A DNA stretch of 59,922 nt, filler included. It is 5 parts of 5 records of this genome, joined end to end, with 100 filler letters (N's around TTAATTAATTAA, not from the genome) between each part and the next. Parts side by side here need not be neighbours in the genome. Positions count along the whole stretch, not along the records: positions 40,611 to 46,761 come from DRR723986_11177; 4 more parts are not named here. One strand, written 5' to 3'. Below the pieces are notes generated by a model that had not been told where the DNA came from, did no database searches, and was given only the letters and a program-made list of their open reading frames with translations. The first letter of the stretch is position 1. Each line of letters starts with the position of its first letter. Positions 4,178 to 52,878 of this stretch are shown one piece after another. The position numbers and the translations under genes were made by a program.

Positions 4178-4692
4178 AGGCCGCTGGAAGTAAGCGCTGC
4201 TTCGCTCGCCGTCCAGCCTGCATCCGCCGCTGCAGAAAGCCGCATCGCTGCGAGGCGGGCGAGGCGAAGGGTTACGGCCTTGCGCCGGGCAGGGGAGAGC
4301 TTCTCGGCCGGGGCCTCCCGGATCACTGCCGCGCCAAAGGCATCGGCCACGATCACGCCGGCGTCTTCCGGGATCAGCTCCTGCGGAAAGTCATGGTCGA
4401 CGGCAAACCAGAACCGGTCGCAGAAGGGAATATATTCCGGCCATTTGCCATCCGACTGGAAATCCGGCACGCCGGACTTGATCTCCACGATCCAGATCTC
4501 GCCGCCGGAGCCGACGGCGGCAATGTCCGCACGGCGGTTGTTGGCAAGGGTCATTTCCTGAATGCCGCAAAGGCCGAGGTCCGCCAGCAGGCGCAGTGTG
4601 CCGCGGGCAATCGCGGCGGCGCGGGCGAGGTCTTCGGTTGTGTCTGCGCCATCGGGCATGCGAGTCATGTTCCGGTATTGTTCTGCCCACAC
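4174..4692 (-). CDS. mmcB: MmcB-family DNA repair protein (DUF2052, PD-(D/E)xK nuclease fold)
   Basis: Motifs RRADI, IWIVEIKS, DGKWPEY, CDRFWFAV; start codon uncertain. Confidence 0.85.
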   Translation of the reverse strand: MWAEQYRNMTRMPDGADTTEDLARAAAIARGTLRLLADLGLCGIQEMTLANNRRADIAAVGSGGEIWIVEIKSGVPDFQSDGKWPEYIPFCDRFWFAVDHDFPQELIPEDAGVIVADAFGAAVIREAPAEKLSPARRKAVTLRLARLAAMRLSAAADAGWTASEAALTSSGL

Positions 4693-4851: not shown

Positions 4852-4928
4852 GGTCCCGTAGCTCAGCAGGATAGAGCAACAGATTCCTAATCTGTAGGTC
4901 GTGAGTTCGAATCTCGCCGGGATCGCCA
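4852..4928 (+). tRNA. tRNA-Arg (anticodon CCT)
   Basis: 77-nt cloverleaf GGTCCCG...CGGGATCGCCA; anticodon arm ACAGA-TTCCTAA-TCTGT; T-loop GTTCGAATC; encoded CCA. Confidence 0.97.
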
Positions 4929-11067: not shown

Positions 11068-13191
11068 TCAGAAACGGCGCGCGACGCGCGCAACCACAGT
11101 CCGCTGCTCACCGGGGAAGCAATCGCCCCGGGCAAGGCAGGTGCCGTAATATTCCTCATCCGTGATGTTGCGGGCGTTGAGGGTTAGGTCCCAGTTCTCC
11201 GTCTCGTAGCCGATCAACAGATCGCCGAGGACCACACCATCTGTCACAACGCGGACAGGGCCGACGAGGCCGATCCCGTTGCTCTCGTTTTCACCGAGAT
11301 AGCGGATGCCGAAACCGGCCTTGAAGTTCGCCAGCGGGCCTGCTTCCGGCTGGTACTGAACCCAGGCGGAGGCCTGGTCTTCCGCGATGGAATCGAACGG
11401 GATGCCATTCGGCGATTCGGTATCGAGCAGGCTGAGATTGCCTTCGAGATACCAGTCGCCGAGTGTTGTCAGAGCTTCGAATTCGAAGCCTTTGGATGTG
11501 CCGGTTCCTTCCTGCTGGCTGTCCGGCTGGCCGATGATGGATGCCGGGTTCGGGAGGTTCGTTTCCTCGATCTCGAAATAGGCAGCGGTGATGTAGGTCC
11601 GCGTGCCGGGCGGCTGGTACTTGATGCCGGCTTCCCACTGTTCGCCCTCACGCGGCTTCAGCGGCTGGCTGGTGAAGCCGTCGAGACCGATCACGGGCTC
11701 GAAGGATTCCGCAAAGCTGACATAGGGGGAGAAGCCGTTCTCGAAGGCATAGAGTGCGCCGACGCTGAACGAGGTGGCATCGTCCGACTGAGTGGTTGAG
11801 GCTGTCACGGTTTCGGTGTCATCGTAGCGAACGCCGATATTGAACTTCCACGCGTTCAGGGAGATCTGGTCGTTGATATAGAGGCCATAATCTTCCGTCT
11901 CCGTATCACCTGGATCGTAGAAATTGGATGGGTCGTCAAAGGCGGCCGGGTAGCCGGGATAGACCGGATCAAAAGCGTCAAATGAGCCGATGCCGGCCGC
12001 ATAGATGTAGCGGCTGCCGATGGTAACGTCCTGATAGGCGATTCCGGCAAAGACTTCGTGCTCCAGCTGACCGGTGGAGAAGGTGTAACGCGCGCGGATG
12101 TCGAGCGCCGATTGTTCGGAGTAAGCTTCGTTCCTGTAGAAGGTGCGCGTGCCATTGCCGTCCGCGTCAATGCGCGGCGTCCCTGCGCCAAGGAAATCCA
12201 AATAGGACTGCCAGTAGTCGGCTTCACCGTCCTTGTAACGGAAGATCCCGTCGACCGAGAAATTCGGTGTGAATTCATGGGAGCCAAGCAGGCTGACCAG
12301 AATGGAGTCGGTATTGTAGCGGTTGAAGCCGGGTTCCCCATGATAGGTCGAGGCGTCGATTTCCTGACCGTTTGCATTTGCGCAGACAATCTCAGACGTG
12401 ATGGTCACATCACCGCTGACACAGCCAGTGCCTGTAAGCGGAAGGAACTGGGAGGAGGTGTCGCTATCCCGGTCGGAATATTCCACCATGGCTGTCAGGC
12501 GGGTGATGCCATTGTCATAGCTGATGGAGGGCATCAGGATGGCGGCGTCGTCATTGACCCGGTCGACCTGCGTGCCGCTCTCCCGGTAGACGCCGACAAG
12601 GCGGAAGAAGACATTTTCGGCAAGCTGTGCATTGAAATCACCGGCGGCCTGGTAGCGGTCATTGGTGCCGACGTCGAAGACGACTTCGTTGGACTTGTCG
12701 GGCCCTGCAAGTTTCGACACGGCGTTGACGATGCCGCCCGGTGTGCCCTTGCCATAAAGGACCGAGGCCGGGCCCTTGAGGATCTCGACCTGTTCGAGGA
12801 CATAAATATCCGTACGCGTGTTATTGTAATAACCGAACAGGACCTGCTGGCCATCCCGGTATTCTGCGGCGTCAAATCCCCGGACGCTCGCAAAGTCCCC
12901 GCGTGTAGCCGGTCCATAAGTGCCGGCATCCACGCCAGCTGCATAATCGAAGGATGCGGCGAGGGTCAGCGCGCCCTTGTCGCGAAACTGTTCTTCGGTT
13001 TCGATCGAGATGGACCGGGCGGTTTCCAGAATGGGGGTTGTCGTCTTGGTCGCGCCGAAGTCAGACAGTTGCCCTGTGACCCGGATGGTCTCGAGCCGTT
13101 TTTCGTCGGGATTATCGTCACTCATATTCTGGGCATAGGCTGCCCCTGCTGTCAGCATCGCTGCTGCCAGCACACTACCAAATTTCCGCAT
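11068..13191 (-). CDS. TonB-dependent siderophore receptor
   Basis: Signal peptide; TonB box ETIRVTG; plug motif VEILKGPASVLYG...PGGIVN; C-terminal Phe. Confidence 0.95.
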   Translation of the reverse strand: MRKFGSVLAAAMLTAGAAYAQNMSDDNPDEKRLETIRVTGQLSDFGATKTTTPILETARSISIETEEQFRDKGALTLAASFDYAAGVDAGTYGPATRGDFASVRGFDAAEYRDGQQVLFGYYNNTRTDIYVLEQVEILKGPASVLYGKGTPGGIVNAVSKLAGPDKSNEVVFDVGTNDRYQAAGDFNAQLAENVFFRLVGVYRESGTQVDRVNDDAAILMPSISYDNGITRLTAMVEYSDRDSDTSSQFLPLTGTGCVSGDVTITSEIVCANANGQEIDASTYHGEPGFNRYNTDSILVSLLGSHEFTPNFSVDGIFRYKDGEADYWQSYLDFLGAGTPRIDADGNGTRTFYRNEAYSEQSALDIRARYTFSTGQLEHEVFAGIAYQDVTIGSRYIYAAGIGSFDAFDPVYPGYPAAFDDPSNFYDPGDTETEDYGLYINDQISLNAWKFNIGVRYDDTETVTASTTQSDDATSFSVGALYAFENGFSPYVSFAESFEPVIGLDGFTSQPLKPREGEQWEAGIKYQPPGTRTYITAAYFEIEETNLPNPASIIGQPDSQQEGTGTSKGFEFEALTTLGDWYLEGNLSLLDTESPNGIPFDSIAEDQASAWVQYQPEAGPLANFKAGFGIRYLGENESNGIGLVGPVRVVTDGVVLGDLLIGYETENWDLTLNARNITDEEYYGTCLARGDCFPGEQRTVVARVARRF

Positions 13192-40510: not shown

Positions 40511-40610
40511 NNNNNNNNNNNNNNNNNNNNNNNNNNNNNNNNNNNNNNNNNNNNTTAATTAATTAANNNNNNNNNNNNNNNNNNNNNNNNNNNNNNNNNN
40601 NNNNNNNNNN
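40511..40610. other. Artificial contig linker
   Basis: N-run, TTAATTAATTAA, N-run. Confidence 0.98.
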
Positions 40611-40736: not shown

Positions 40737-41414
40737 TCACGCCTTTGCCAGATCTATGGTGATGGCCTGCCATGGCGCGTCAGGGGCGGAGCGCTCATAG
40801 CAGCGGACATAGGATTTGGAGCCGACCGTGCGCATGGCGTCCTTGATGGCTTGCATGCCGCGCTGCCAACGAGGGTCCTCGATCTCCAGTTTAGTAAGGC
40901 GCACGATCTCATGGCGGTTGATCTGGCCTTCTTTGTCGGTGTTGAAGGCGCGGGTGACGATGGCGCGGATCTCGGGGCGCGATTGGGCGGACCATTCAAT
41001 CAGGCATTCATCAACAAGCTGTTTGGCGATCTGCAGTTCTGGGCCGAAGTCGATCTGCTCTGACACCTGAACCTGAACTTTGAACAACCCATCATAGGTC
41101 ATCAGGGTTTTGTTGCCCTTTGCTCCGCCCAGGGTGGTTTCATATTCCTGCGCCAGGATGGCTTCAAAATAGGCGATGTCTGCATAGGTGTGGGCCTTGA
41201 AGCGGCTGACCTGGGCGCTGATGGCCTTGCCATAGCCGATGATCTTGCGGACGGTTTCGTCCTGGAGCGCGTCTTGCGCGCGAACCAGTTCATCAGGGAC
41301 AAGCGAGCCCTTGGCGTTGGTTCGGTATTTCTGGCCGTTCATCTCGATAATCCCATCAGGGATTTTGACAGGTTTGAAGGCTGTGTCGGGGGGCGGAGTC
41401 CGGGATTCAGTCAT
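40737..41414 (-). CDS. DUF3164-family phage protein
   Basis: GGAKGNKTLMTYDG, FGPELQIAKQLVDECL, GSKSYVRCYER, IDLAKA. Confidence 0.88.
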   Translation of the reverse strand: MTESRTPPPDTAFKPVKIPDGIIEMNGQKYRTNAKGSLVPDELVRAQDALQDETVRKIIGYGKAISAQVSRFKAHTYADIAYFEAILAQEYETTLGGAKGNKTLMTYDGLFKVQVQVSEQIDFGPELQIAKQLVDECLIEWSAQSRPEIRAIVTRAFNTDKEGQINRHEIVRLTKLEIEDPRWQRGMQAIKDAMRTVGSKSYVRCYERSAPDAPWQAITIDLAKA

Positions 41415-41440
41415 GCGTGGTTTCTTTCAAAAAGGGGGGG

Positions 41441-41531
41441 GCTGGCTGCTCATCAGACCGGGGCGGCCAGGCCCCGATGACCGCGCCCGACCACGCCAGG
41501 CGGCACTCGGCGGGGCCGGGCGGGTTTCGTA
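41441..41531 (-). ncRNA. Type II hammerhead ribozyme with loop-I pseudoknot
   Basis: Minus strand reads C-GAAA, stem III, GUC, stem I (AUCGGGGC/GCCCCGGU), CUGAUGA-G; loop CUGGC pairs with 3' tail GCCAG. Confidence 0.85.
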
Positions 41532-41535
41532 TGGA

Positions 41536-41823
41536 TCAGGCGTTCAATTGATCTTTGAGCGCCCTGGCGGGTTTGAAGCCAAGCGATGAGGAGGCCTCGA
41601 TCTGAATGGACGCGCCGGTCGCAGGGTTGCGTCCGGCGCGCGCTGCGCGTTCTGCCCGCTTGAAGGTGCCAAACCCATGCAAACTGACGTCCTGGCTTGC
41701 CACTGCGGCTTTGGTGATCTGCTCAAGGAAGGCGTCGATTGTCGCGCCCACGGTCTCTTGGGTCTGGCCCACCTCCTGGGCAATGCTGCGGGTCAGGTCC
41801 TGTTTGGTGATCTTCTTTGACAT
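41536..41823 (-). CDS. Phage-encoded HU-family DNA-binding protein
   Basis: GFGTF, RAARAGRNPATG, FKPARALKD. Confidence 0.92.
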   Translation of the reverse strand: MSKKITKQDLTRSIAQEVGQTQETVGATIDAFLEQITKAAVASQDVSLHGFGTFKRAERAARAGRNPATGASIQIEASSSLGFKPARALKDQLNA

Positions 41824-41892
41824 GGGTCGTTTCCTTCGGGTTGTGCGCTCAATGGCGCGGGGTGTGAGGCTTGGTAATCCGGCCAGATGACC

Positions 41893-41931
41893 GAGCCAGA
41901 TTACGGAGCCAGATTACGGAGCAAGATTACG
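41893..41931. repeat. 13-bp tandem repeat, 3 copies
   Basis: GAGCCAGATTACG, GAGCCAGATTACG, GAGCAAGATTACG, preceded by degenerate GGCCAGATGACC. Confidence 0.9.
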
Positions 41932-42256
41932 CATCCGATTGGCTCCACTCCTTGAGGAGGGTGGTTTCCAGAATGCGCGCTGCCGCTTCTGAGGGCGTCA
42001 GTCCGCGCCGTTCGGCGTAGGACAACAACAGCCCATGCAGGCGCGAGGGGACGGAGAGGTGGGGATTGGGCGCAACCGGGACCTCGTTTGGTGACGCCCG
42101 ATGGGGGCCATAAAGCGGAATGTCCGCGCCCTCGGTGCGCGCGCGCCGGATGCGGGAATAGACCGTGTCCGGGGTGATCCCAAGCTGACGCGCAATTACG
42201 CGCGGCGGAATGCGCCGTTTGGCCAGCTCAACAATGCGATGTGTCAAAGCGGTCAT
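41927..42256 (-). CDS. Small phage HTH protein
   Basis: IARQLGITPDTVYSRIRRAR; ATGA-coupled start at 42256. Confidence 0.75.
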   Translation of the reverse strand: MTALTHRIVELAKRRIPPRVIARQLGITPDTVYSRIRRARTEGADIPLYGPHRASPNEVPVAPNPHLSVPSRLHGLLLSYAERRGLTPSEAAARILETTLLKEWSQSDA

Positions 42257-42627
42257 GGCGCGTCCTTTGCTTTGGTATGAAGCGGGCAGGCGCGGCAGGA
42301 TCGGAACATGGCGACGACGGCGGGGCTGGCGGAGGTCAGTTTGCCGGTGCGGTCGCGCCATTTGAGACAGGCCTCGCCGCTGATGGAGCCGAGGGCCGGG
42401 CAGCGGATGTCCTTGTCCAGCAGCACAGCGCGCACCCGCGCCTCCATCCGGGCCATATTGCCGGGGTAGGAATTGCGGATCAGCTGACTGACGGTGCTGG
42501 CGGAGACACTCAAACGCGCGGCAACCCTGTTCTGCGAGGTCTGTTCGCAGGCCGTAATCAGCGCCGCGACCCAAGGGGGCAGAGCATCGTTCCAGGCCTC
42601 GGTGGCGATTATCAATCGGTCGCTCAT
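42253..42627 (-). CDS. Mu-like phage HTH protein with Cys-rich C-terminus
   Basis: SQNRVAARLSVSASTVSQ; CPALG...C...CRACP. Confidence 0.8.
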   Translation of the reverse strand: MSDRLIIATEAWNDALPPWVAALITACEQTSQNRVAARLSVSASTVSQLIRNSYPGNMARMEARVRAVLLDKDIRCPALGSISGEACLKWRDRTGKLTSASPAVVAMFRSCRACPLHTKAKDAP

Positions 42628-43499
42628 GCCCGTGCCCCCTTATCGTATTCGATGGTGTCGGTGTTGGGGTCGATCAGAACAGACAGGCGCTTTTGAACGG
42701 GCGGCAGCGGACCGGAATTGCGGATCAGCTGATAGCGCGCCGGGCTCTTGCGGCTGGCTTTGTAGAGCACCCGCAGATAGCCGTAGTGCGCCAGATTGGA
42801 ACAGTATTTCTGGATGACCTCGGCGCTGATGCCGTGGTCGATGCCCGACAGCGTTGCCGCCAGATCCACCGGGGTGAATGTACGCGCGATGCGCATGGCG
42901 GACCAGATCCGGCCCTCGGGGCTGAGACGTTTGTCGCGGGTTTCCCGCTGGATCTGCTCGGGATCAATGGCGGAGAAATACCCCGCCCCATTCTTGCGGC
43001 CCAGATAGCGGATCTGGCCCGTGTTCTGCCAGCGTCGAAAGATCAGTTCCAGCCGGTGGCGGGGCAGGACGGCCTGCGCAAAGAACTGCGCTTTGGTGAA
43101 GGCGATCTGCGTTTTGGTGAAGTCCCAGATCGCGGCAACCTGGTCCGTCTCGGGTTGCCAGGGAACTGTTGGTGCGGCCGTTGGCGCGGGGTCGCTCTGG
43201 GCTGTGCTCAGGCGCTGATCCAGGGCGTCGGACCGGAGGGCGGCGTCAGCCTCCGGATCGGCGGTCAGAAACGCGGCGCGGGCCTGCTCGGGATCATGGG
43301 TGGTCATCAGGATCTGCCCCTCAAAGGTGCCGCAAGGCTTGATCACGCCGCGCCGTTTCAGAGCGCGCAGGGTGTTGGTGCGTTTCCAGTCACTGGCGCT
43401 GCAATGGGCGGCCAGTTGGGCGGTGGTGAAGGCCGACCGCGACTTTGCGAACTCAAGGATCTGGATTTCTACCGGGGGCGGCGGCTGAAGCTGGCTCAC
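42624..43499 (-). CDS. Mu-like phage hypothetical protein (winged-helix-like repeats)
   Basis: IWSAMRIARTFT, YQLIRNSGPLPP, DPN; GTG start overlaps the MuB stop. Confidence 0.75.
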   Translation of the reverse strand: MSQLQPPPPVEIQILEFAKSRSAFTTAQLAAHCSASDWKRTNTLRALKRRGVIKPCGTFEGQILMTTHDPEQARAAFLTADPEADAALRSDALDQRLSTAQSDPAPTAAPTVPWQPETDQVAAIWDFTKTQIAFTKAQFFAQAVLPRHRLELIFRRWQNTGQIRYLGRKNGAGYFSAIDPEQIQRETRDKRLSPEGRIWSAMRIARTFTPVDLAATLSGIDHGISAEVIQKYCSNLAHYGYLRVLYKASRKSPARYQLIRNSGPLPPVQKRLSVLIDPNTDTIEYDKGARA

Positions 43500-44239
43500 T
43501 TGAGGCCCCTCCGTGCGATGGGGGCATCCCCGCGCAGAAACGGCGTCTGTCCCCAATCCTTAAGCGAGATGGCATCCACGCCCAGCGTGTCGGCGTGTTC
43601 GTTCACATAGGCAATGTCGATGGAGGTGAGGCGCGCGTTGCCGGTGTTGCGCGCCAGAATGTGGGACAACAGATCGTCACCGATGGTGATGTTCGGGGCG
43701 TAATACATCGCCAGTAAGGTCGCGTCTTTGAGGGTGGCAGGCTCGGCGGCGGTCCAGTTCAGAACGCGGCTGTCCACCAGTTCCCATTTGCGCAGTTTCT
43801 GGGGCAGCTCCTCCATGCCGATCAGGATCACCGGCACCTGGGAGCCGTCGGAGAAATCCCGAATGATCTGGATCAGGCCTTTCTGGATGGCATAATCGGC
43901 CTCATCAATGATCAGGGTGCGCCCCGCCATTGCGAGGCTTTCGTTGGCCTGCATCATCATGTCGGCCAGCGATCCGCGCGCCGGTGCGCCCAGCTCGCGC
44001 AGGACCTGGGTCAACAGGGTCTTGCGGGTCCAGAGCTCCTGCACCGAGATGTGGATCGCATCCAGCGCGGCGGCGGCATAGATTGCGGCCTGGGTTTTGC
44101 CATAGCCGGGCGGGCCGTAGAACACGCCCATGCCGGGCAGGCCATGCTGGCGGTTTTCCAGCATCTTGATCTGCATGGCCAGCGCAGTGACATTGCGCAA
44201 CGGCTGCACACTGTTGCCGATGCTTATCGTCTGTGACAT
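43496..44239 (-). CDS. MuB-like AAA+ transposition ATPase
   Basis: Walker A GPPGYGKT, Walker B LIIDEAD; follows the transposase. Confidence 0.9.
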   Translation of the reverse strand: MSQTISIGNSVQPLRNVTALAMQIKMLENRQHGLPGMGVFYGPPGYGKTQAAIYAAAALDAIHISVQELWTRKTLLTQVLRELGAPARGSLADMMMQANESLAMAGRTLIIDEADYAIQKGLIQIIRDFSDGSQVPVILIGMEELPQKLRKWELVDSRVLNWTAAEPATLKDATLLAMYYAPNITIGDDLLSHILARNTGNARLTSIDIAYVNEHADTLGVDAISLKDWGQTPFLRGDAPIARRGLK

Positions 44240-44262
44240 GGTTCCTCCTTAGGGTCTGAGGC

Positions 44263-46419
44263 CTAGCTGGCCCCGCCGATATTGAAGCTCTCAAAGACCG
44301 CCAGAGCGCCTTTGTATTTGGCTGTTTTGGTGTAGCGCTGGACCCAATCCGCCTCTTCGCGCCCCACCGGTTTACCGGCCTCTGAGCGGGCCAGAATCTC
44401 CTGGGCCTGGTCAAAGCGCTCCTCATCCGTGGCCGCGGGGGTGAACCCGTTCGAACCGGGGTTCGGCTCAGGGGGCTGACGCTGTGGCAGGGCCAAGATC
44501 ATGGCCTCGTGCTGGGCATCCAGTTCGGGGTTTGTGGGCGTCTGATAGGTCGGGGCGTGAACCCTCTGGGCACGGTCCGGGGTGCGGAATTCTGCCGTCA
44601 CAACCTTGGCAGACACCTGTGTCGGGTCCGATGTCTCTGGTGTCATGGTCGCCATGGTCGGCGCGATCTGTGCGACGCTGACGGGGCGCAGCTCCTTGAG
44701 CAAGCTCCTATGCGCCCGTTTGATCCGGGCCTGACGGCGCTTCTCTTCCTTGGCCCCGATCAGATCGTTAAAGCCGACCTTCTGGCGGCATTCGGCAAAG
44801 CCGAGGAACGCATTGTCCAGAGAATAGATGAACACACCGGAATGCAGGTCTGCGGGATCAAACCGGGCGAGGACCTTGCGATCGGCATGTTCACTCATCC
44901 ACTCGGAATGATAATCGTTGCCATAGAGCTTGAGGGTGCCGTTTATCTTGTGCAGTTTCTTGGGTTCTTGTCCCATCAGCCACAAGCGGCGCTGTTCCTC
45001 GGTGGCTTTGCGGATCGGGGCCTTGGCGTAACTGTCTGCAAATGTCTGATCAAAGCTGCGCCCGCGCGCGGTCGGCGACAGACGGCCCTGCCGGGCGTTA
45101 TGCTCGCTGATGCCTTCCTCCAGAACCGCGATGAACTCTTCCAGGGGGATCGCGCGATTGCCGTAGTTCTCGGGCTTGGCATCGGGCTTGTTGCCCACAT
45201 AGGCCCCATGGAACCGGGGATCTTTGGCGATGTCACTTGCCCAGCCGCCAAAGGCGCGTTCAACCGGTTTAGACTGGCCATGACCGGGTTCTGCCCACTG
45301 CACCTTTATGCCCATCAAGGGCAGGATGCCCTTGGGGTCATCGTCGCGGATCTTGAAGCGGAAGCGGGTCTCGGTGCCACCGGTGAGCCACTTGTTGGCA
45401 AATTCGCGCCCGTTATCAAACAGGCACCGCTGGGGAATACCCCAGGTCTCGATCATCTCGCCGAAGGCGGCCATGACCATGACCGCATTGGGCGAGCGAT
45501 CAACTTGCCAGGACAGGAACTTGCCGGAATAGAGATCCTGGAACGCAACGATCTGGGGGCGGCCAATGCTGCCATCGGGCCAGCGGACAAAGACGTCGAT
45601 CTTGTGGCAATCGGCGTTGACACCTTCCATGGCGGTCATGGCTGTGCGGTCGCGGATCTGGGCCGGGAACCGGCGCAGGAGGCCGGTGTCCCCTTCGCGG
45701 GCATAGACCTGCACCAGCAGGGGCACCTCTTCATTCAGACGCCGCCGGGCGGTGGCCAGGGTGAGGGTGCTCCAGCGCTGTTTGCGGGCCTCGTTCACGG
45801 CCAGTCGGTAGCTGTGGGCAAACGTGGGCTGTTCCAGGCGCAGATAAAACGTCTTCAAACGGTCCATGAAGCCATGGGAGCAGGTGGCTTTGACGGATTT
45901 GCGGGTGGCCTGTTTGTGGCGCGGCACCAGATAGGCAAGACGGTCTTCAAGGGCGACACCTTCGACCATGTCCAGCCAGTTGTAGACCGAGCGCGGCGAT
46001 TGATTGGCCTGTTGCGCGGCGGCGGCAACCGCCTGCACGTGGGGCAGCCCCGCCATGTGCAGGCTGTCGACCAGACGCAGGGCTTCGAGCCGCTTCGCCG
46101 CTTTGTCTTTGGCGGCGGCATTCAGGCTGTCATAGAACGCCCAGGCTGCACCGCGCGGTGGTTTGCCTTTTGGCTCAGGGGCAGGCGTGGCCGCGTCTTT
46201 CAACAGCTTCTGGCGGGTGGCCAACGGCAAGACCGACCAATGATAGAGCCAGCCACCGCCGCGTCCTTGCTTTTTCTTGGTGCACCCCGGAGCGGCGCGC
46301 CAGCCAAGCTGATCCGCCATCACATTGATGCCGCGCTTGGTGCCCGGCAGATCGGGCAGGCCGGAGTTGGCCAGCTCATCCGCGCCCCACCAGATTTTAT
46401 CCGGCTCGGTGAGGCTCAT
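44263..46419 (-). CDS. MuA-like DDE transposase
   Basis: N-terminal Mu HTH region (GRGGGWLY); DDE residues in NADCH, FDNG and KPVER; Mu-transposase C-terminal domain. Confidence 0.93.
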   Translation of the reverse strand: MSLTEPDKIWWGADELANSGLPDLPGTKRGINVMADQLGWRAAPGCTKKKQGRGGGWLYHWSVLPLATRQKLLKDAATPAPEPKGKPPRGAAWAFYDSLNAAAKDKAAKRLEALRLVDSLHMAGLPHVQAVAAAAQQANQSPRSVYNWLDMVEGVALEDRLAYLVPRHKQATRKSVKATCSHGFMDRLKTFYLRLEQPTFAHSYRLAVNEARKQRWSTLTLATARRRLNEEVPLLVQVYAREGDTGLLRRFPAQIRDRTAMTAMEGVNADCHKIDVFVRWPDGSIGRPQIVAFQDLYSGKFLSWQVDRSPNAVMVMAAFGEMIETWGIPQRCLFDNGREFANKWLTGGTETRFRFKIRDDDPKGILPLMGIKVQWAEPGHGQSKPVERAFGGWASDIAKDPRFHGAYVGNKPDAKPENYGNRAIPLEEFIAVLEEGISEHNARQGRLSPTARGRSFDQTFADSYAKAPIRKATEEQRRLWLMGQEPKKLHKINGTLKLYGNDYHSEWMSEHADRKVLARFDPADLHSGVFIYSLDNAFLGFAECRQKVGFNDLIGAKEEKRRQARIKRAHRSLLKELRPVSVAQIAPTMATMTPETSDPTQVSAKVVTAEFRTPDRAQRVHAPTYQTPTNPELDAQHEAMILALPQRQPPEPNPGSNGFTPAATDEERFDQAQEILARSEAGKPVGREEADWVQRYTKTAKYKGALAVFESFNIGGAS

Positions 46420-46761: not shown

Positions 46762-46861
46762 NNNNNNNNNNNNNNNNNNNNNNNNNNNNNNNNNNNNNNN
46801 NNNNNTTAATTAATTAANNNNNNNNNNNNNNNNNNNNNNNNNNNNNNNNNNNNNNNNNNNN
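46762..46861. other. Artificial contig linker
   Basis: N-run, TTAATTAATTAA, N-run. Confidence 0.98.
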
Positions 46862-46862
46862 G

Positions 46863-47162
46863 ATCGCCAAATGTTCCAACCCGATTGACCGGATTGATAT
46901 TTGCGAGGCGCTGCACCACGGCACCGCCAAGAGCGCCAAAGAGGTTCTAAAGTATAAGAAACAGCCCGGCGTGGCGGTTCAAAGCGCTGTTGAAAAGGCG
47001 CAAAGCAAGATCACCGATGCTTGGTCTCGTGCCCCTAAAGACGCCAGACGCCGGTTCGCAGAGGCGCATCGGGACGAGGTGCGCGCTCTGATCGGCTTGC
47101 CTGAGGGAACAGCACCAGAGGCTGATGTGATAGAATTCCAAAGCCGCCGGGAGGTGAGCTGA
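46863..47162 (+). CDS. C-terminus of probable ParB-like phage protein, cut by gap
   Basis: Homologous to 46419-46760; frame open from the contig start. Confidence 0.6.
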   Translation: MAKCSNPIDRIDICEALHHGTAKSAKEVLKYKKQPGVAVQSAVEKAQSKITDAWSRAPKDARRRFAEAHRDEVRALIGLPEGTAPEADVIEFQSRREVS

Positions 47163-49315
47163 TGAGCGTCACAGAACCGGATAAACTCTGGTGGAGCGCG
47201 GATGATCTGGCCTCTTCTGGTCTGCCTGACATGCCGGGCACCGTGCAGGGGATCAATCACCTTGCCAAACAGCTTGGATGGCGCGCGGCTCCGGGGTGTA
47301 CGCAACGCAAACAGGGACGCGGTGGTGGCTGGCTCTATCACTGGTCGGTTCTGCCCTTAGCGACCCGTCAAAAGCTGTTGAAAGACGCCGCTGCCCCTGT
47401 GGCCGAACCCAAGGGCAAGCTGCCCCGCGGTGAGGCCTGGGCGATTTATGACGGGTCAAGCACCCCTGCCAAAGACAAGGCCAAGAAGCGGTTGGCTGCC
47501 TTGCAATATGTGGACGCTCTACACCTTGCTGGGCTAACCCATGTCAGCGCGGTGATTGAGGCGGCAAAACAGGCGGATCAATCGCCCCGCTCGGTCTATA
47601 ACTGGCTGGGCATGGTTGAGGGTATCGCGCCCGATGATCAGCTTGCCTATCTGATACCGCGCCACAAACAGGCCGCGCGCAAATCCACCAAAGCCACCTG
47701 TTCGCGCGATTTCATGGACTATTTGAAGGGGCTTTTCTTACGCCTTGAACAGCCCACTTTCGCCAACAGTTATCGCCTCGCAATTGCTGAGGCCAAGCGA
47801 CGGGAATGGGACACGCTAACCAAGGTCACAGCCAAGCGTCATATTGATGACGAAGTCCCCCGTGTGGTGCAGGTGCGCGCCCGTGAAGGCGTCGCCGGCT
47901 TGATGCGCTGTTTCCCGTCTCAGATCCGCGACCGTACCACCTTGAACGCCCTCGAAGGCGTCAATGCCGACTGTCACAAGATAGACGTGTTTGTGCGCTG
48001 GCCAGACGGCAAAATCATTCGGCCCCAGATCGTCGGGTTTCAGGATCTATATTCCGGCAAAATCCTGAGCTGGCGCGTGGATAATGACCCCAATCAGGTC
48101 ATGGTCATGGCCGCATTTGGTGAGATGATCGAGACATGGGGCATTCCCAAGCATTGCCTGTTTGATAACGGCCATGAGTTTGCAAACAAATGGCTGACCG
48201 CAGGCACCAGAACCCGGTTCCGCTTCAAAATCCGCGAAGATGATCCGCTGGGCGTTCTGCCCCTCTTAGGCATTCAGGTGCATTGGGCCACGCCCGCGCA
48301 TGGTCAGGCCAAGCCGGTTGAACGCGCGTTTCGTGATTTCGCAAGCGACATTGCCAAGCACCCGAAATTCCATGGCGCCTATGTCGGCAATCGCCCCGAT
48401 GCCAAGCCCGAGAACTATGGAAACCGGGCTATCCCGCTCGAAGAATTCATTGAGGTATTGGCCGAAGGGATTGCTGAACACAACGCCCGGCAAGGGCGCT
48501 TGTCGCCTACCGCCAAAGGCCGCAGCTTTGATGAGACTTTTACGGATAGCTACGCCAAAGCCCCGGTTCGCAAAGCCACCGCAGAACAGCGCCGTTTGTG
48601 GTTGATGGGCCAGCAGAATTCCAAGCTGCACAAGAAACATGGCGGCCTCAAACTATACGGCAATGAATACCACTCGGAATGGATGAGCGAACGCGCGGAC
48701 GAAAAGATCGTGGCCCGCTTTGATCCTGAGGATCTGCATTCCGGCGTCTACATCTATGCCAAGGACGGCGCGTTTCTGGGCTTCGCTGAATGTCGCCAGA
48801 AAGTTGGGTTCTTTGATCTGATCGGAGCCAAAGAAGAGGCGCGCCGCAAGGCCCGGATCAAGAAAGCACACAAAAAGCTGCTGGAAGCCCATCGCCCAGT
48901 CACCATCGAGCACATTGCCCCTGCTATGCCCACAGAGGCACCTGAGAAACAGGATCTGTCCGCCAAAGTGGTCACGCCGGAATTTGGCCGCAAACCGCGC
49001 CAACCACTGGTGCAAAGACCCAAATATGAAACGGTTGAAGATGCAGAGCTGGATGCGGCGCGCGAAGCAATGATCCTGAGGTTTCACGAAAAGACGGACC
49101 CGACCCCTGCAAGCGAAGACACGCCAGACCACTTCCAGCCGTCTTTTGATCCAGATGTTCGGTTTACTCAAGCTCAGGCCATTTTGGCCCGCTCCGACGC
49201 GGGACAACGCATTGGCAAAGACGAGGCCGAATGGGTCGAGAATTACACCAAAACCGGTGAATACAAATCGAAAATAGCGATGCGTGCACACTTCAATCTG
49301 GGCGGCGCTGGGTAG
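47162..49315 (+). CDS. MuA-like DDE transposase
   Basis: NADCH, FDNG, KPVER; collinear with 44263-46419. Confidence 0.93.
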   Translation: MSVTEPDKLWWSADDLASSGLPDMPGTVQGINHLAKQLGWRAAPGCTQRKQGRGGGWLYHWSVLPLATRQKLLKDAAAPVAEPKGKLPRGEAWAIYDGSSTPAKDKAKKRLAALQYVDALHLAGLTHVSAVIEAAKQADQSPRSVYNWLGMVEGIAPDDQLAYLIPRHKQAARKSTKATCSRDFMDYLKGLFLRLEQPTFANSYRLAIAEAKRREWDTLTKVTAKRHIDDEVPRVVQVRAREGVAGLMRCFPSQIRDRTTLNALEGVNADCHKIDVFVRWPDGKIIRPQIVGFQDLYSGKILSWRVDNDPNQVMVMAAFGEMIETWGIPKHCLFDNGHEFANKWLTAGTRTRFRFKIREDDPLGVLPLLGIQVHWATPAHGQAKPVERAFRDFASDIAKHPKFHGAYVGNRPDAKPENYGNRAIPLEEFIEVLAEGIAEHNARQGRLSPTAKGRSFDETFTDSYAKAPVRKATAEQRRLWLMGQQNSKLHKKHGGLKLYGNEYHSEWMSERADEKIVARFDPEDLHSGVYIYAKDGAFLGFAECRQKVGFFDLIGAKEEARRKARIKKAHKKLLEAHRPVTIEHIAPAMPTEAPEKQDLSAKVVTPEFGRKPRQPLVQRPKYETVEDAELDAAREAMILRFHEKTDPTPASEDTPDHFQPSFDPDVRFTQAQAILARSDAGQRIGKDEAEWVENYTKTGEYKSKIAMRAHFNLGGAG

Positions 49316-49384
49316 GCGTTTGAAAGAAATTTGCCGCCGCCAGGATGGACCCCACAGCGACGGCAACAACGAACAGGAGAAACC

Positions 49385-50131
49385 ATGTCACAGAACATGA
49401 ATACGGGCAACTTGATACAGCCGCTCAAAAATGTAGCGGCCCTCTTCAAGCTGATCGAAGACATTAACCTTCGACAAGAAGGCTTGCCTGGCATGGGCGT
49501 GTTTTCAGGTTACCCCGGTTATGGCAAATCCTTCGCGGCGCAATCTTGTGCGACAGCGTTGGGGGCGATTCACATTTCCATCCTCAAGTCGTGGACCGCC
49601 AAATTCTTTCTCGAACAGCTATTGGTCGAACTGAAAGTGACGCCAAAAGGCTCGGTTGCCAAACTTGAGCAGATGGCCTGCGAAAAACTCTTGCGCACAC
49701 AGCAGACGGTTCTGATTGATGAGACCGACTTTGCCGTTGAAAAGGGCTACATCGAAATCATTCGCGACCTGCACGATGTCTCCGGTGTGCCGATCATTAT
49801 GATTGGCATGGAGGAACTACCGCAAAGCCTGACCCGCTGGGAACAAGTTGACAGCCGCGTTGCCTCTTATGTTCAGGCGCAACCAGCAGACCTAAAAGAT
49901 GGCAGAATGCTTGCTGACGTCTATGCCTCCGGCATTGAAATAGACGACGACCTGTTGGCTCACATCATCGCCCGCAACACCGGCAGCGCCCGGTTGATTG
50001 CCAAAGACCTGGACCACATCAAGCAAAAATGTGTGCTTACGACAGTCAAAAAAATGACCCTTCAGAAATGGGGAAATACGGCGTTTCACGGAACCAGCGC
50101 CCCGAAAGCTCGGTCAGGATTTGTGTTTTGA
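49385..50131 (+). CDS. MuB-like AAA+ ATPase
   Basis: GYPGYGKS, VLIDETD; RBS AGGAG; ATG at 49385. Confidence 0.9.
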   Translation: MSQNMNTGNLIQPLKNVAALFKLIEDINLRQEGLPGMGVFSGYPGYGKSFAAQSCATALGAIHISILKSWTAKFFLEQLLVELKVTPKGSVAKLEQMACEKLLRTQQTVLIDETDFAVEKGYIEIIRDLHDVSGVPIIMIGMEELPQSLTRWEQVDSRVASYVQAQPADLKDGRMLADVYASGIEIDDDLLAHIIARNTGSARLIAKDLDHIKQKCVLTTVKKMTLQKWGNTAFHGTSAPKARSGFVF

Positions 50132-50898
50132 TCACGCTACAATCTCTCTCCCCAAAGGAGCAGGAAATCTGGAATTTTCTGCACTCGCGCACCGTTTTTG
50201 CACTCACAGACGTCATATCGGCCTGTTCCAGCCCAAGATGGATAATCGACCAGTTTCTGAACGCCCAGATAGAGCTGGGAAATCTGGCCATTGTTGGCCG
50301 TCTCGGCAACACCCGCCTGATGACCGTGCACTCCCCCAAAGAGGCACAAATCATGTTAGAAGCCACTGCCCCAGAAGATCAGGCTCTCTTGTGGAAATTC
50401 GTTTGCGAGAGAGAGCGGTTTTTACGCCATGAACTTCTTGAGGTCGAAGGCGTGAGTAAAATTGCTGCGCGGCGGTTTTTCCACGCACTTAATGAAACGG
50501 GCTTGATCCGCGAAGTCGGAAAAGCTGAAACCACGCCGCAATACTCAGTCCTGAGTGACCATGATCTGGACCAGAGAGAAATGGCCCAACGCCTGAGTAA
50601 GGAAGGCCGGATCTGGTACGCGATTAGGATTGCCCGCCGCTTCACCCCGCTAGATATTCAGGTTTCGTTAGGCCAAGGCGCAGATCCAATCGCTTTGAAA
50701 GATATTCAAGGATATTGCTCGATGCTGGCCCGTGCGGGGTATCTGGCGGTCTTGAAAAAGGCGCGACCCGGCAAACACGCCGCCCATTACCAGCTCACCA
50801 ACAACACAGGACCTTTGCCCCCCGTTGAAAAACGCATGGCGGTTGTTGTGGACCCCAATGAGGAGCGCATTGTTTACGCGCCGAAAGGTTTACTATGA
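50128..50898 (+). CDS. Mu-like phage hypothetical protein
   Basis: IWYAIRIARRFT, NNTGPLPP, DPN; homolog of 42624-43499; TTG start inferred. Confidence 0.75.
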   Translation: MITLQSLSPKEQEIWNFLHSRTVFALTDVISACSSPRWIIDQFLNAQIELGNLAIVGRLGNTRLMTVHSPKEAQIMLEATAPEDQALLWKFVCERERFLRHELLEVEGVSKIAARRFFHALNETGLIREVGKAETTPQYSVLSDHDLDQREMAQRLSKEGRIWYAIRIARRFTPLDIQVSLGQGADPIALKDIQGYCSMLARAGYLAVLKKARPGKHAAHYQLTNNTGPLPPVEKRMAVVVDPNEERIVYAPKGLL

Positions 50899-51317
50899 GC
50901 CATCGAACCAACATAGCAAAAAGCGGTTGGGGCAACGTGCCCGATTGGATCACAGCGTTGATCTTGGCCTGCGATAAAACCTCTCAAAACAGAGTTTCGA
51001 AACGGCTGGGCATCACAGCCTCTACCGTCAGCCAGGCAATAAGCAACAGCTACAAAGGCCGGATGGATCGGCTCGAAGAGCGGGTGCGCGCCGTCTACAT
51101 CGACATGGATGTTGAATGCCCGGCCCAAGGCACAATCACCGCAGAAGTCTGCATGAGCTGGCGAGATCTATCTGTTGAGCTGCTCTCCACGAGCCCCGCC
51201 CGCGCCCGCATGTTTCGCGCCTGTAACAGATGCCCACGAAATTGGAATAACGACGAGGACGCACAGCGGTTGCTCGAAACCGACCGCCCTAAAAGCTGGA
51301 GCCAGTCTGATGCGTAA
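50895..51317 (+). CDS. Mu-like phage HTH/Cys-rich protein with fused tail
   Basis: Homolog of 42253-42627 with extra tail RLLETDRPKSWSQSDA. Confidence 0.8.
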   Translation: MSHRTNIAKSGWGNVPDWITALILACDKTSQNRVSKRLGITASTVSQAISNSYKGRMDRLEERVRAVYIDMDVECPAQGTITAEVCMSWRDLSVELLSTSPARARMFRACNRCPRNWNNDEDAQRLLETDRPKSWSQSDA

Positions 51318-51555
51318 AACATCCCTCATTTTCAAGGCCGCGCTGGCCGTTGGTTTCGCCGTGCATCTTATGGTGTCCAATCCCGGAGATTGGTTCCTTT
51401 TGGCCGCATACGTCTGGGGGCTCGGTCTTGGATTTCTCTTTTTCGGCCCCGCGTTTGAAGAGCTTCTGGCCCAGCTTGCGCGCATCATACCGTCTTCTCC
51501 GCGCAGGTCATGTTCCGCACCCGTCGCAAACACCAAACTACACCCAAAGGACTAA
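51310..51555 (+). CDS. Small two-TM hypothetical phage protein
   Basis: 81 aa, MRKTSLIFKAALAVGFAVHL...WFLLAAYVWGLGLGFLFFG; start overlaps the upstream stop. Confidence 0.55.
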   Translation: MRKTSLIFKAALAVGFAVHLMVSNPGDWFLLAAYVWGLGLGFLFFGPAFEELLAQLARIIPSSPRRSCSAPVANTKLHPKD

Positions 51556-51559
51556 ACTC

Positions 51560-52222
51560 ATGACCAAGACCCCCAGCCCGCACCAGCCACATGTCATCCC
51601 AAACGGCACCGTCGAGATGAACGGTAAGACCTACATGACCGATGCCAAGGGCAGTCTGGTGCCCAAGGATCTGGTCCGCGCTCAAGACCAGCTCCAGGAC
51701 GAAACCGTGCGCAAGATCGTCGGATATGGCAAAGCAATCAGCGGTCAGGTCGCCCGGTTTAAAGAACACACCTACGCAGACATCGCGGATTTCGAGGCCA
51801 TCCTGGCGCAAGAATACGAGACCACAATTGGCGGTGCCAAGGGCAACAAAACGCTGATGACCTACGATGGCTTATTCAAGGTGCAGGTGCAGGTATCAGA
51901 AGAGCTGAGCTTTGGTCCTGAACTTCAGATCGCGAAAAAACTGGTGGACGAATGCCTAATCGAATGGTCCGCAGAATCCCGCCCCGAGCTTGGCGCTATC
52001 GTTACCCGCGCGTTCAACACTGACAAAGAAGGCCAAATCAACCGCCATGAAATCGTCCGCCTGACCAAGCTGGAGATCAAAGACGAACGCTGGCAGCGTG
52101 GCATGAAAGCCATCAAGGACGCCATGCGCTCAGTCGGGTCGAAATCCTATGTCCGCTGTTATGAGCGCCCTACAAATGACGCCCAGTGGCGGGCCATCAC
52201 CATTGATTTGGCAAAGGCGTGA
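51560..52222 (+). CDS. DUF3164-family phage protein
   Basis: Closely similar to 40737-41414; ATG at 51560 after AAAGGA. Confidence 0.88.
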   Translation: MTKTPSPHQPHVIPNGTVEMNGKTYMTDAKGSLVPKDLVRAQDQLQDETVRKIVGYGKAISGQVARFKEHTYADIADFEAILAQEYETTIGGAKGNKTLMTYDGLFKVQVQVSEELSFGPELQIAKKLVDECLIEWSAESRPELGAIVTRAFNTDKEGQINRHEIVRLTKLEIKDERWQRGMKAIKDAMRSVGSKSYVRCYERPTNDAQWRAITIDLAKA

Positions 52223-52225
52223 ACG

Positions 52226-52348
52226 ATGACGACTGCTCTGATCCGCAAAATCCACGTGGGCTGTCGCCAGCTTGGTCTTGATCAGGACGCGCGGCGGCAC
52301 CTTCAGCTTGTGACCACCGGCAAAGCCTCGCTGACCGATATGACTGAG
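52226..52348 (+). CDS. gemA: GemA N-terminus, cut by gap
   Basis: MTTALIRKIHVGCRQLGLDQDARRHLQLVTTGKASLTDMTE. Confidence 0.8.
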
Positions 52349-52448
52349 NNNNNNNNNNNNNNNNNNNNNNNNNNNNNNNNNNNNNNNNNNNNTTAATTAA
52401 TTAANNNNNNNNNNNNNNNNNNNNNNNNNNNNNNNNNNNNNNNNNNNN
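52349..52448. other. Artificial contig linker
   Basis: N-run, TTAATTAATTAA, N-run. Confidence 0.98.
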
Positions 52449-52449
52449 C

Positions 52450-52878
52450 ATGGTGCTGAAGAACTGCGGCCCCAAGGGGTACCCGGGCATGTCGGAAGTC
52501 GGCAATATGGGCTTGCCGCCCAAGGTGCTGAAGAAAGGCATTACCGACATGGTCCGCATTTCGGATGCGCGCATGTCCGGCACGGCTTATGGCACCGTTG
52601 TCCTGCACACCTCTCCGGAGGCTGCTGCCGGAGGTCCTTTGGCTGTTGTGAAAGACGGCGATATGATCGAACTGGATGTTGCGAACCGGACAATCCATCT
52701 CGACATTTCCGAACAGGAATTGTCCGCGCGGCTTGCAGCATGGAAGCCGTCGCACCATGTTCCGGACAGCGGCTACGCCCGCCTGTTCCATGACCACGTT
52801 CAGGGTGCCGACACCGGCGCTGATTTCGACTTCCTGAAAGGCTGCCGCGGTTCCGCCGTGCCGAAGGATTCACATTGA
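52450..52878 (+). CDS. IlvD/Edd-family sugar-acid dehydratase (L-arabinonate dehydratase-like), C-terminal part
   Basis: GPKGYPGMSEVG, ISDARMSGT, GADFDFL, ends KDSH. Confidence 0.88.
   Translation: MVLKNCGPKGYPGMSEVGNMGLPPKVLKKGITDMVRISDARMSGTAYGTVVLHTSPEAAAGGPLAVVKDGDMIELDVANRTIHLDISEQELSARLAAWKPSHHVPDSGYARLFHDHVQGADTGADFDFLKGCRGSAVPKDSH

What the first reader, a model, noticed from the sequence alone, without database searches (positions are those of the whole stretch)
41441..41531. Complete type II hammerhead ribozyme inside the Mu-like early operon
Seen on the coding (minus) strand between the HU stop and the DUF3164 start: C-GAAA (41529-41525); stem III ACCCGCCCGGCC/GGUCGGGCG(C)GGU with one bulge and a further inner hairpin; cleavage triplet GUC (41481-41479); 8-bp stem I AUCGGGGC/GCCCCGGU; CUGAUGA (41456-41450) and G10.1. 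Stem II is a single G-C pair, and loop-I CUGGC (41470-41466) pairs with 3' GCCAG (41446-41442). Known: all invariant hammerhead core nucleotides are present, and short-stem-II pseudoknotted type II hammerheads occur in bacterial and phage DNA with largely unknown roles. Inference: self-cleavage between 41479 and 41478 splits the early transcript, separating MuA-MuB-HU from DUF3164-gemA and giving the latter a 5'-OH end 64 nt before its AUG.
Basis: partly seen in the sequence, partly recalled or inferred. Interest (0 to 1): 0.85.

Follow-up and report, generated by a model that had tools for sequence, protein, structure and literature searches.

The report
Hammerhead ribozyme after phage HU gene
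A real but ordinary type II hammerhead self-cleaving RNA sits just after the HU gene of a Mu-like prophage, a setting where such ribozymes are already known to be common, and this copy carries one unusual base that may weaken it.

Summary
On the minus strand, 41442-41530 has every hammerhead core nucleotide, stems I and III, a one-pair stem II and a 5-bp loop-I/3'-tail pseudoknot. Rfam Hammerhead_II (RF02276) scores it 33.8 bits. That is below the gathering score of 37, so it is missed at the curated threshold, but E is 1.7e-5 on 221 nt and 4.6e-4 on its 6.15-kb contig.

A covariance model built only from five orthologous loci finds it at 64.8 bits, E 1.8e-18. Across 92 related copies 97.5% of cells pair, with strong covariation.

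In the 160 DUF3164 loci the ribozyme always directly follows a phage HU gene. Enrichment of hammerheads near Mu-like phage genes is already in print (PMC10085705).

Two corrections:
- The one-pair stem II is a private A at position 11.2. The other 91 copies, and the contigs from all four runs laid on the site, have G.
- gemA is not visible, and the neighbouring mreC is an artefact of concatenated contigs.

Cleavage was not tested. Verdict: new member of a known kind, low to moderate interest.

The parts
41436..41536 (-). Whole hammerhead element as matched by the orthologue-derived model R1 (Rfam RF02276 match is 41440-41532)
41525..41530 (-). 5' shoulder: A41530 (position 11.2; G in 91 of 92 relatives), C41529 (11.1), G12 A13 A14 (41528-41526), A15.1 (41525)
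41480..41525 (-). Stem III hairpin: 12 pairs with C41483 bulged, plus a lineage-specific extension of about 23 nt in its loop. Close relatives show length changes here (-10, -20, +4, +5 nt at 41491-41493).
41479..41481 (-). Cleavage triplet GUC. The predicted scissile bond lies between C41479 and A41478.
   Evidence: cleavage itself inferred from the family
41457..41478 (-). Stem I hairpin (8 pairs) with loop 41470-41465. Loop bases 41470-41466 form the 5' strand of the pseudoknot.
41448..41456 (-). Core CUGAUGA (41456-41450), then G10.1 (41449) and C10.2 (41448)
41442..41446 (-). 3' strand of the pseudoknot (GCCAG): 5 pairs with loop I here, 4 pairs in most relatives
41536..41823 (-). Phage HU gene (95 aa, PF00216). 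Its stop codon ends 6 nt before C11.1.
41415..41441 (-). C-run, U-run and A-rich leader of DUF3164. The U-rich and A-rich part is conserved in L082 and L002, so it is not a terminator tail.
40737..41414 (-). DUF3164 gene (225 aa), first gene after the ribozyme
43496..46419 (-). Mu-type transposase A (44263-46419) and AAA+ MuB-like gene (43496-44239), upstream in the same orientation
40511..40610 (.). Contig-join linker (a run of N, TTAATTAATTAA, a run of N). The same linker is at 46762-46862 and 52349-52451, so the ribozyme's true contig is 40611-46761.

Best explanation
The element is, by descent, a member of the pseudoknotted type II hammerhead family (Rfam RF02276), placed as an intercistronic ribozyme in the early gene block of a Mu-like prophage of a probable marine Rhodobacterales host.

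Inferred mechanism. The early genes are transcribed on the minus strand. The RNA folds with stems I and III flanking the core, and the loop-I/3'-tail pseudoknot holds stems I and II parallel. The 2'-OH of C41479 then attacks its own phosphate.

Inferred products:
- The upstream RNA (transposase ... HU) ends about 58 nt after the HU stop codon, in the long stem III hairpin, with a 2',3'-cyclic phosphate.
- The downstream RNA starts with a 5'-OH and the stem I hairpin, 64 nt before the DUF3164 AUG.

Inferred purpose: to uncouple the stability and translation of HU and the upstream genes from whatever follows.

What is shown: the ribozyme travels with HU, not with the downstream gene. This particular copy has a private A at 11.2 that removes the second stem II pair. 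I put its chance of still cleaving usefully at about 0.6.
For: Sequence and models:
- All core nucleotides and helices are present.
- RF02276 gives E 1.7e-5 and 4.6e-4.
- 5 of the 20 closest DUF3164 loci carry RF02276 above gathering, at 56-67 bits.
- Model R1, built from those five without the window, hits the window at 64.8 bits, E 1.8e-18.

Covariation:
- In 15 distinct orthologous rows, 97.5% of cells pair, 11 of 24 pairs change on both sides, and 0 of 500 shuffles reach this.
- In 92 rows, 97.5% pair, with 394 both-side cells against 107 +/- 7.6 in shuffles, 0 of 500.

Close relatives in four metagenome runs:
- Changes at 41514, 41516 and 41522 all keep stem III paired.
- Indels fall only in loop III.
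- No change is listed in 41442-41490.

Context:
- In the DUF3164 loci, all 19 hammerheads start 16 nt or less after the end of the HU match.
- 19 of 28 HU-bearing loci have a hammerhead, against 0 of 132 loci without HU (duplicates between collections not removed).
- HU lies upstream of DUF3164 in one group and downstream of it in the other.
- Four of 4 upstream ORFs tested are PF00216. Eleven of 11 downstream ORFs match no Pfam family and are 80-321 aa long.

Published support:
- A natural type II hammerhead with a one-pair stem II and a pseudoknot cleaved at more than 1.2 per min in 0.5 mM Mg2+ (PMC3088659, passages read).
- Processing of polycistronic transcripts is the function proposed for bacterial hammerheads (PMC6765202, passages).
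Against: - No cleavage data exist for this or any orthologous copy. No RNA run was available.
- The window copy falls below Rfam's gathering score (33.8 against 37).
- Position 11.2 is G in 91 of 92 aligned copies, and in the contigs from all four runs laid on the site. Only the window has A, so a near-invariant pair is broken.
- In the published one-pair example, changing stem II length lowered activity, so stem II geometry matters (PMC3088659).
- The first and last bases of loop I are also unusual: C where 90 of 92 copies have G, and C where 61 have G and 26 have U. No difference from the laid relatives is listed at either base.
- Folding energy is not better than shuffles.
- The stability and uncoupling role is inference only.
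Confidence: 0.6

Rival explanations
1. Decaying or crippled relic. The element descends from an active hammerhead, but this copy no longer cleaves at a useful rate because the 11.2 G-to-A change leaves a one-pair stem II. It survives only as a pair of hairpins between HU and DUF3164. Alternatively the A is an assembly error and says nothing about the real phage.
For: - A at 11.2 occurs in 1 of 92 aligned copies.
- The contigs from all four runs laid on the site read G there.
- The Rfam score drops to 33.8 bits, against 56-67 bits for orthologues.
- Other probably impaired copies exist. L036 has U in place of C3, and L054 has an extra U after A9.
- The window is a draft assembly of short concatenated contigs.
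Against: - Every other core position is intact.
- The pseudoknot has 5 pairs rather than 4.
- A natural one-pair stem II hammerhead with a pseudoknot is fast (PMC3088659).
- Flanking genes are intact ORFs with strong Pfam matches.
Confidence: 0.3
2. The fold acts without cleavage. The conserved structure serves mainly as a stable 3' hairpin, transcription pause or translation barrier after HU, and catalysis is incidental.
For: HU-bearing loci without a hammerhead have other structures in the same slot. L012, L088 and L101/L102 have a plain GC-rich hairpin. Seven loci have a different conserved multi-helix RNA.
Against: - The unpaired catalytic nucleotides (CUGAUGA, GAAA, the base before the cleavage site) are almost invariant across 92 copies, while the helices vary freely. 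That pattern is expected for catalysis, not for a mere hairpin.
- Family members cleave in vitro and in vivo (PMC3088659).
Confidence: 0.07
3. Chance resemblance: GC-rich palindromes or an intrinsic terminator that happen to contain the hammerhead words.
For: - The region is 76% G+C, and its folding energy is not above shuffles.
- It lies below Rfam gathering.
- A U-run follows the element.
Against: - E is 1.8e-18 with a model that never saw the window.
- The element is orthologous in position and shows covariation.
- No terminator-like site was found on this strand.
- The U-run belongs to a DUF3164 leader conserved in L082 and L002.
Confidence: 0.03

Closest known systems
Hammerhead ribozyme type II, Rfam RF02276 (Perreault et al. 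2011, PMC3088659)
   Same: - Same permutation: stems I and III closed, stem II open.
- Same core, a very short stem II, and the loop-I/3'-tail pseudoknot with the consensus tail after stem II.
- Prophage context.
   Different: - This copy scores 33.8 bits, below the gathering score of 37.
- It has an extension of about 23 nt in loop III.
- It has A opposite C at 11.2/10.2, and a 5-pair pseudoknot with an unusual loop I.
[quoted passage not shown]
   Same: One-pair stem II combined with a pseudoknot that is essential for speed. It cleaved at more than 1.2 per min in 0.5 mM Mg2+ (passages read).
   Different: That RNA's one-pair stem is its natural design, and adding a pair lowered activity. Here the one-pair state is a private substitution in a lineage that otherwise keeps two pairs. 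I could not compare the sequences, because figures are not held.
Self-cleaving ribozymes (hammerhead, twister) enriched near Mu-like phage genes (Roth 2014 and Weinberg 2015, as summarised in PMC10085705)
   Same: Same genetic neighbourhood. In my sample of 68 ORFs directly upstream of type II hammerheads in viral contigs, the recognisable ones are mostly Mu-type early genes: HU 8, DUF3164 4, DUF2786/DUF7168 4, Gam 3, Mor 2.
   Different: The two primary papers are not held, and supplements are closed. I therefore cannot say whether HU or DUF3164 is named in their gene lists. The strict HU-then-hammerhead order seen here may or may not be in print. A search for 'self-cleaving ribozyme' with 'DUF3164' found 0 papers.
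Multiple hammerheads flanking single genes in prophages, such as the Agrobacterium tumefaciens triple arrangement around ardA (PMC3088659)
   Same: Intercistronic placement in a polycistronic phage transcript. Cleavage was shown there in vitro and in E. coli.
   Different: The 6.15-kb contig has only one hammerhead. Other viral contigs in my sample carry arrays, for example 12 matches in L203.

Membership tests
Hammerhead ribozyme (type II, RF02276) | Conserved core: C3 U4 G5 A6 N7 G8 A9, G12 A13 A14, the A15.1-U16.1 pair, and a non-G base at position 17 before the cleavage site | tested here: met
   All are present at 41456-41450, 41528-41525, 41480 and 41479.
Hammerhead ribozyme (type II, RF02276) | Type II permutation: stems I and III closed by loops, 5' and 3' ends in stem II | tested here: met
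   Stem III hairpin at 41525-41480 and stem I hairpin at 41478-41457. The order GAAA, III, cleavage site, I, CUGAUGA is correct.
Hammerhead ribozyme (type II, RF02276) | Stem II: the G10.1-C11.1 pair, plus at least one further pair in this subfamily (G11.2-C10.2) | tested here: inconclusive
   G41449-C41529 is present. The second pair is A41530 opposite C41448. It is G-C in 91 of 92 copies, and the four laid relatives read G at 11.2. A one-pair stem II is documented as active in one natural case (PMC3088659).
Hammerhead ribozyme (type II, RF02276) | Pseudoknot between loop I and the tail 3' of stem II | tested here: met
   41470-41466 pairs with 41446-41442, 5 pairs. The four family pairs are 97.3% paired in 92 copies, with one-sided and some two-sided changes.
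Hammerhead ribozyme (type II, RF02276) | Score at or above Rfam's curated gathering threshold (37 bits) | tested here: not met
   33.8 bits. Orthologues score 56-67 bits. The shortfall goes with the loop III insertion, the 11.2 mismatch and the unusual loop I, which are flagged in the alignment.
Hammerhead ribozyme (type II, RF02276) | Homology to accepted members (same site in related elements, covarying helices) | tested here: met
   R1, built without the window, gives 64.8 bits and E 1.8e-18. The element has the same place after HU. Covariation is shown.
Hammerhead ribozyme (type II, RF02276) | Site-specific self-cleavage giving 2',3'-cyclic phosphate and 5'-OH ends | not testable with these tools
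   No RNA run holds the stretch. A bench assay is needed.
Mu-like transposable prophage, early region | Mu-type DDE transposase with Mu DNA-binding domains, followed by an AAA+ MuB-like gene and early accessory genes on one strand | tested here: met
   PF02914, PF09039, PF09299 and PF02316 in 44263-46419. AAA_22 in 43496-44239. HU and DUF3164 lie downstream. Phage ends and late genes are not on this contig.

The most novel reading that the evidence does not exclude
The slot directly after the phage HU stop codon may be a dedicated, exchangeable RNA-device position in Mu-like phages. In some phages it holds a hammerhead whose 5' shoulder starts 1-9 nt after the stop codon. A ribosome terminating on HU could then occlude the core, so that HU translation gates cutting of the early transcript. 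In other phages the slot holds a plain hairpin. In at least seven loci it holds an undescribed RNA of about 120 nt with several helices. That RNA has covarying helices, pairs with the next gene's ribosome-binding region, and could be a new regulatory or self-cleaving class.
Probability: 0.08. Interest if true: 0.65.

Novelty: new member of a known kind. Interest (0 to 1): 0.3.

Why it matters
The element adds a sub-threshold member to a well-known ribozyme family in a context that is already published. It does not change what is known.

It has three modest uses:
1. It shows that Rfam's gathering score misses real hammerheads that carry loop insertions.
2. The window copy (A at 11.2) and its near-identical relatives (G at 11.2) form a natural pair for testing how much the second stem II pair matters when the pseudoknot has five pairs.
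3. The strict HU-then-hammerhead order gives a concrete handle on the still open question of what bacterial and phage hammerheads are for. So does the replacement of the ribozyme by a hairpin or by another structured RNA in sister phages. These point to a test of the fate of HU mRNA with and without cleavage.

Tried and rejected
- Whole-genome search for further copies: no genome is held for this window.
- Expression evidence: no RNA holder is listed among 19 runs. The four runs laid were DNA contigs only, so they show no RNA ends.
- Primary papers on gene association (PMC4509812, PMC3867598): not held. Supplements are closed, so their gene lists were not seen.
- MAFFT alignment A1 placed the window's loop insertion at the 5' end. 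I did not use it and relied on model-based alignments instead.
- Alternative terminator idea. In the minimum-energy fold, part of the stem I 5' strand plus loop I pairs with the tail and the C-run ahead of the U-run. I rejected this because no terminator-like site was found on that strand, and the U-rich leader is conserved in front of DUF3164 in L082 and L002.
- Folding energy as evidence: z = -1.31, not informative.
- Second ribozyme in the sister Mu-like contig (46863-52348): none. Rfam found no hit at E of 1 or less in 49900-52348. The only other R1 hit in the window was 13.4 bits, E 0.52, at 11200-11290.
- Other ribozyme classes on the hammerhead contig: none. The two other hits had E 0.47 and 0.59 and match implausible families.
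- Rfam identity for the alternative RNA after HU: no hit at E of 1 or less in 7 loci, 39,615 bases.
- A second Fisher test used a guessed count of distinct loci. I do not rely on it.
- Downstream start distances from the script are unreliable, because it often picked the AUG inside CUGAUGA. I read the tails directly instead.

Full report
**1. The observation**

I read the minus strand of 41300-41700.
- C11.1 and GAAA at 41529-41525.
- A 12-pair stem III (41525-41514 with 41492-41480, C41483 bulged), with a further inner hairpin in the minimum-energy fold.
- GUC at 41481-41479.
- An 8-pair stem I (41478-41471 with 41464-41457).
- CUGAUGA at 41456-41450, and G10.1 at 41449.
- A 5-pair match between loop I (41470-41466) and the 3' tail (41446-41442).
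- Only one stem II pair, because A41530 faces C41448.

The HU stop codon is at 41538-41536 and the DUF3164 AUG at 41414. A cut after C41479 would therefore leave a 64-nt leader, as stated.

**2. Is it more than chance?**

At Rfam's gathering thresholds the whole window gives only a tRNA. With E-value reporting, RF02276 (Hammerhead_II) matches 41440-41532 on the minus strand:
- The score is 33.8 bits against a gathering score of 37.
- E is 1.7e-5 on 221 nt and 4.6e-4 on the 6151-nt contig.

Folding energy alone is not special (z = -1.31).

The decisive evidence is comparative. Using the DUF3164 protein I fetched 80 loci from genomes and 80 from viral contigs.
- Of the 20 closest loci, 5 carry RF02276 above gathering: L003 at 67 bits, L081 at 65, L082 at 61.8, L001 at 60.6 and L002 at 56.
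- From these five alone I built model R1.
- R1 finds the window element at 64.8 bits, E 1.8e-18, in a search of 567,925 bases.
- It also finds 14 further loci at 45-53 bits. Five of these are the same contig seen in both collections, leaving nine distinct.

On the 20 matches (15 distinct rows) 97.5% of pair cells are standard pairs. Eleven of 24 pairs show changes on both sides, and no shuffle of 500 reaches the observed values.

**3. A wider sample**

Of these, 80 loci were listed. R1 found 90 matches at E of 0.01 or less in them, and I carried forward the 77 with E of 2.8e-7 or less, from 44 contigs.

Together with the window and the distinct orthologues this gave a 92-row alignment:
- 97.5% of cells pair.
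- 394 cells have changes on both sides, against 107 +/- 7.6 in shuffles.
- The covariation score is 0.543 against 0.154, with 0 of 500 shuffles as high.
- The unpaired core letters are nearly invariant.

The alignment was fitted to the model, and 77 rows were selected by a word that fixes the 3' core. The counts therefore lean towards the structure, but the 5' half and both stems were free to vary.

**4. What is peculiar about this copy**

(a) Position 11.2 is G in 91 of 92 rows. The single A is the window. I laid contigs from four metagenome runs, from four studies, on 41250-41900. All four read the complement of G at 41530. The one-pair stem II is therefore a private state of this assembly, not a design feature of the lineage. 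It may even be an assembly error.

(b) Loop III carries about 23 extra nucleotides. The four relatives differ here by indels of -10, -20, +4 and +5 nt at 41491-41493. That is expected for a loop that does not matter.

(c) Loop I begins with C where 90 of 92 copies have G, and ends with C where 61 have G and 26 have U. The first C pairs with G41442 and lengthens the pseudoknot to five pairs. No difference from the relatives is listed at these bases.

(d) In the relatives, the substitutions at 41514, 41516 and 41522 all keep stem III paired. No substitution is listed between 41442 and 41490, while the flanking DUF3164 start has about 19 listed changes in one contig. Fifteen further differences were not shown, so this is not a proof of invariance.

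**5. Surroundings**

Pfam gives, on the minus strand:
- a Mu-type transposase at 44263-46419;
- an AAA+ MuB-like gene at 43496-44239;
- an HTH protein at 41927-42574;
- HU at 41536-41823;
- the ribozyme;
- DUF3164 at 40737-41414.

The mreC, PBP2 and rodA genes that follow are not true neighbours. The window is a concatenation of contigs joined by linkers (a run of N, TTAATTAATTAA, a run of N) at 40511-40610, 46762-46862 and 52349-52451. The ribozyme's contig is 40611-46761 and stops 126 nt after DUF3164.

The next contig (46863-52348, plus strand) is a second, diverged Mu-like early block: transposase, MuB-like gene, and a DUF3164 gene about 83% identical in DNA. It has no HU gene and no hammerhead.

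**6. The ribozyme goes with HU**

tblastn with the window's HU finds HU in 28 of the 160 loci.
- 19 of those 28 have the hammerhead, starting from 2 nt inside to 16 nt beyond the end of the HU match.
- None of the 132 loci without detected HU has one. The Fisher p is 3e-18. Duplicates between collections were not removed, and HU detection is incomplete, since L086 and L113 were missed.

In the window, L001, L002, L003, L081 and L082, the HU-ribozyme unit lies upstream of DUF3164. In the Rhodobacter-type group it lies downstream of DUF3164.

The gene after the ribozyme varies. It is DUF3164 in the window, L082 and L002. Elsewhere it is an ORF of 80-321 aa with no Pfam family (11 of 11 tested). 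The upstream ORF is PF00216 in 4 of 4 tested.

Of the 68 such upstream ORFs:
- 8 are HU;
- 4 are DUF3164;
- 4 are DUF2786/DUF7168;
- 3 are Mu Gam;
- 2 are Mor;
- 3 belong to other families;
- 44 match no family.

In the second group the Shine-Dalgarno GGAG begins at the last base of the pseudoknot tail. In the window, a conserved U-rich and A-rich leader follows the tail.

**7. Mechanism**

Shown: the sequence, the family relationship, the structure by covariation, and the placement.

Known from the family: hammerheads cut after position 17 by internal transesterification, giving a 2',3'-cyclic phosphate and a 5'-OH. The type II pseudoknot is needed for fast cleavage at physiological Mg2+. A one-pair stem II can be active (PMC3088659, passages read).

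Inferred here: co-transcriptional cleavage between 41479 and 41478. The HU-side RNA would end in the stem III hairpin, and the DUF3164-side RNA would begin with a 5'-OH and the stem I hairpin. This would uncouple the fates of the two halves of the early transcript. The same role is proposed, without proof, for bacterial hammerheads in general (PMC6765202, passages).

The constant partner is HU. Sister phages have a plain hairpin in the same slot. I therefore favour 3'-end formation and protection of the HU-containing mRNA as the selected effect, with moderate confidence. Whether this copy, with A at 11.2, still cleaves well is open. I estimate 0.6.

**8. Comparison with what is known, and novelty**

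The element is a type II hammerhead of the kind described in 2011. The enrichment of hammerhead and twister ribozymes near Mu-like phage genes is stated in the introduction of PMC10085705, citing Roth 2014 and Weinberg 2015. I could not read those papers.

Searches for 'hammerhead' with 'Mu-like' found only that paper. A search for 'self-cleaving ribozyme' with 'DUF3164' found none. These searches cover open-access text only. I file the element as a new member of a known kind.

**9. Seen in passing**

Among the HU-bearing loci that lack the hammerhead, L018, L019, L075 and L094 carry a different conserved RNA of about 120 nt between the HU stop and the next start. L086 and L113, where tblastn did not detect HU, carry it too, as does L392 from the scan. 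That makes seven loci.
- RNAalifold predicts 36 pairs, 7 of them with compensatory changes.
- One predicted helix pairs the 5' end with the next gene's ribosome-binding region.
- Rfam has no match at E of 1 or less in the four of these loci that I scanned.
- Its linker is variable and few unpaired bases are conserved, which argues against a ribozyme. It remains unexplained.

Noticed in passing
window 40511-40610, 46762-46862, 52349-52451: Contig-join linkers (a run of N, TTAATTAATTAA, a run of N). The window is a concatenation of contigs, so gene neighbourhoods across these points are not real. An example is DUF3164 next to mreC, mreD, PBP2 and rodA.
   Followed up: yes
window 46863-52348 (+): A second, diverged Mu-like early block, placed head-to-head with the first by the concatenation. 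It has a transposase at 47162-49315, a MuB-like gene at 49331-50131, a weak HTH ORF at 50895-51317, and DUF3164 ending at 52222. There is no HU gene and no hammerhead or other Rfam hit. Ribozyme presence therefore varies between two related prophages of one assembly.
   Followed up: yes
L018:3550-3674, L019:2212-2337, L075:2211-2333, L086:4346-4467, L094:4147-4266, L113:4424-4548, L392:4702-4824: An undescribed conserved structured RNA of about 120 nt occupies the slot after HU where other phages have the hammerhead. It has a long hairpin, a covarying helix or pseudoknot, and an outer helix that pairs with the next gene's ribosome-binding region. Four of the seven loci were scanned against Rfam and gave no hit at E of 1 or less.
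   Followed up: partly
L012 about 4160-4215, L088 about 4155-4215, L101 about 4000-4075: In these HU-bearing loci the slot after HU holds only a plain GC-rich hairpin, followed by the next gene's ribosome-binding site.
   Followed up: no
L203 2813-6753 (-); also L172, L179, L212: Arrays of type II hammerheads in viral contigs. L203 has 12 model matches within about 4 kb, each between small ORFs.
   Followed up: no
L036:4042-4122 and L054:4167-4252: Orthologous hammerheads with core deviations. L036 (a Rhodobacter capsulatus record) has U in place of C3. L054 has an extra U between A9 and G10.1. Both may be impaired copies.
   Followed up: no
window 41415-41436; L082 and L002 just before the DUF3164 start: A conserved U-rich and A-rich leader lies directly before the DUF3164 start codon, with no obvious Shine-Dalgarno sequence. 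It may be a translation-enhancer-type leader.
   Followed up: partly
window 4852-4925 (+): A tRNA gene (66.8 bits), the only Rfam match above gathering in the window.
   Followed up: no
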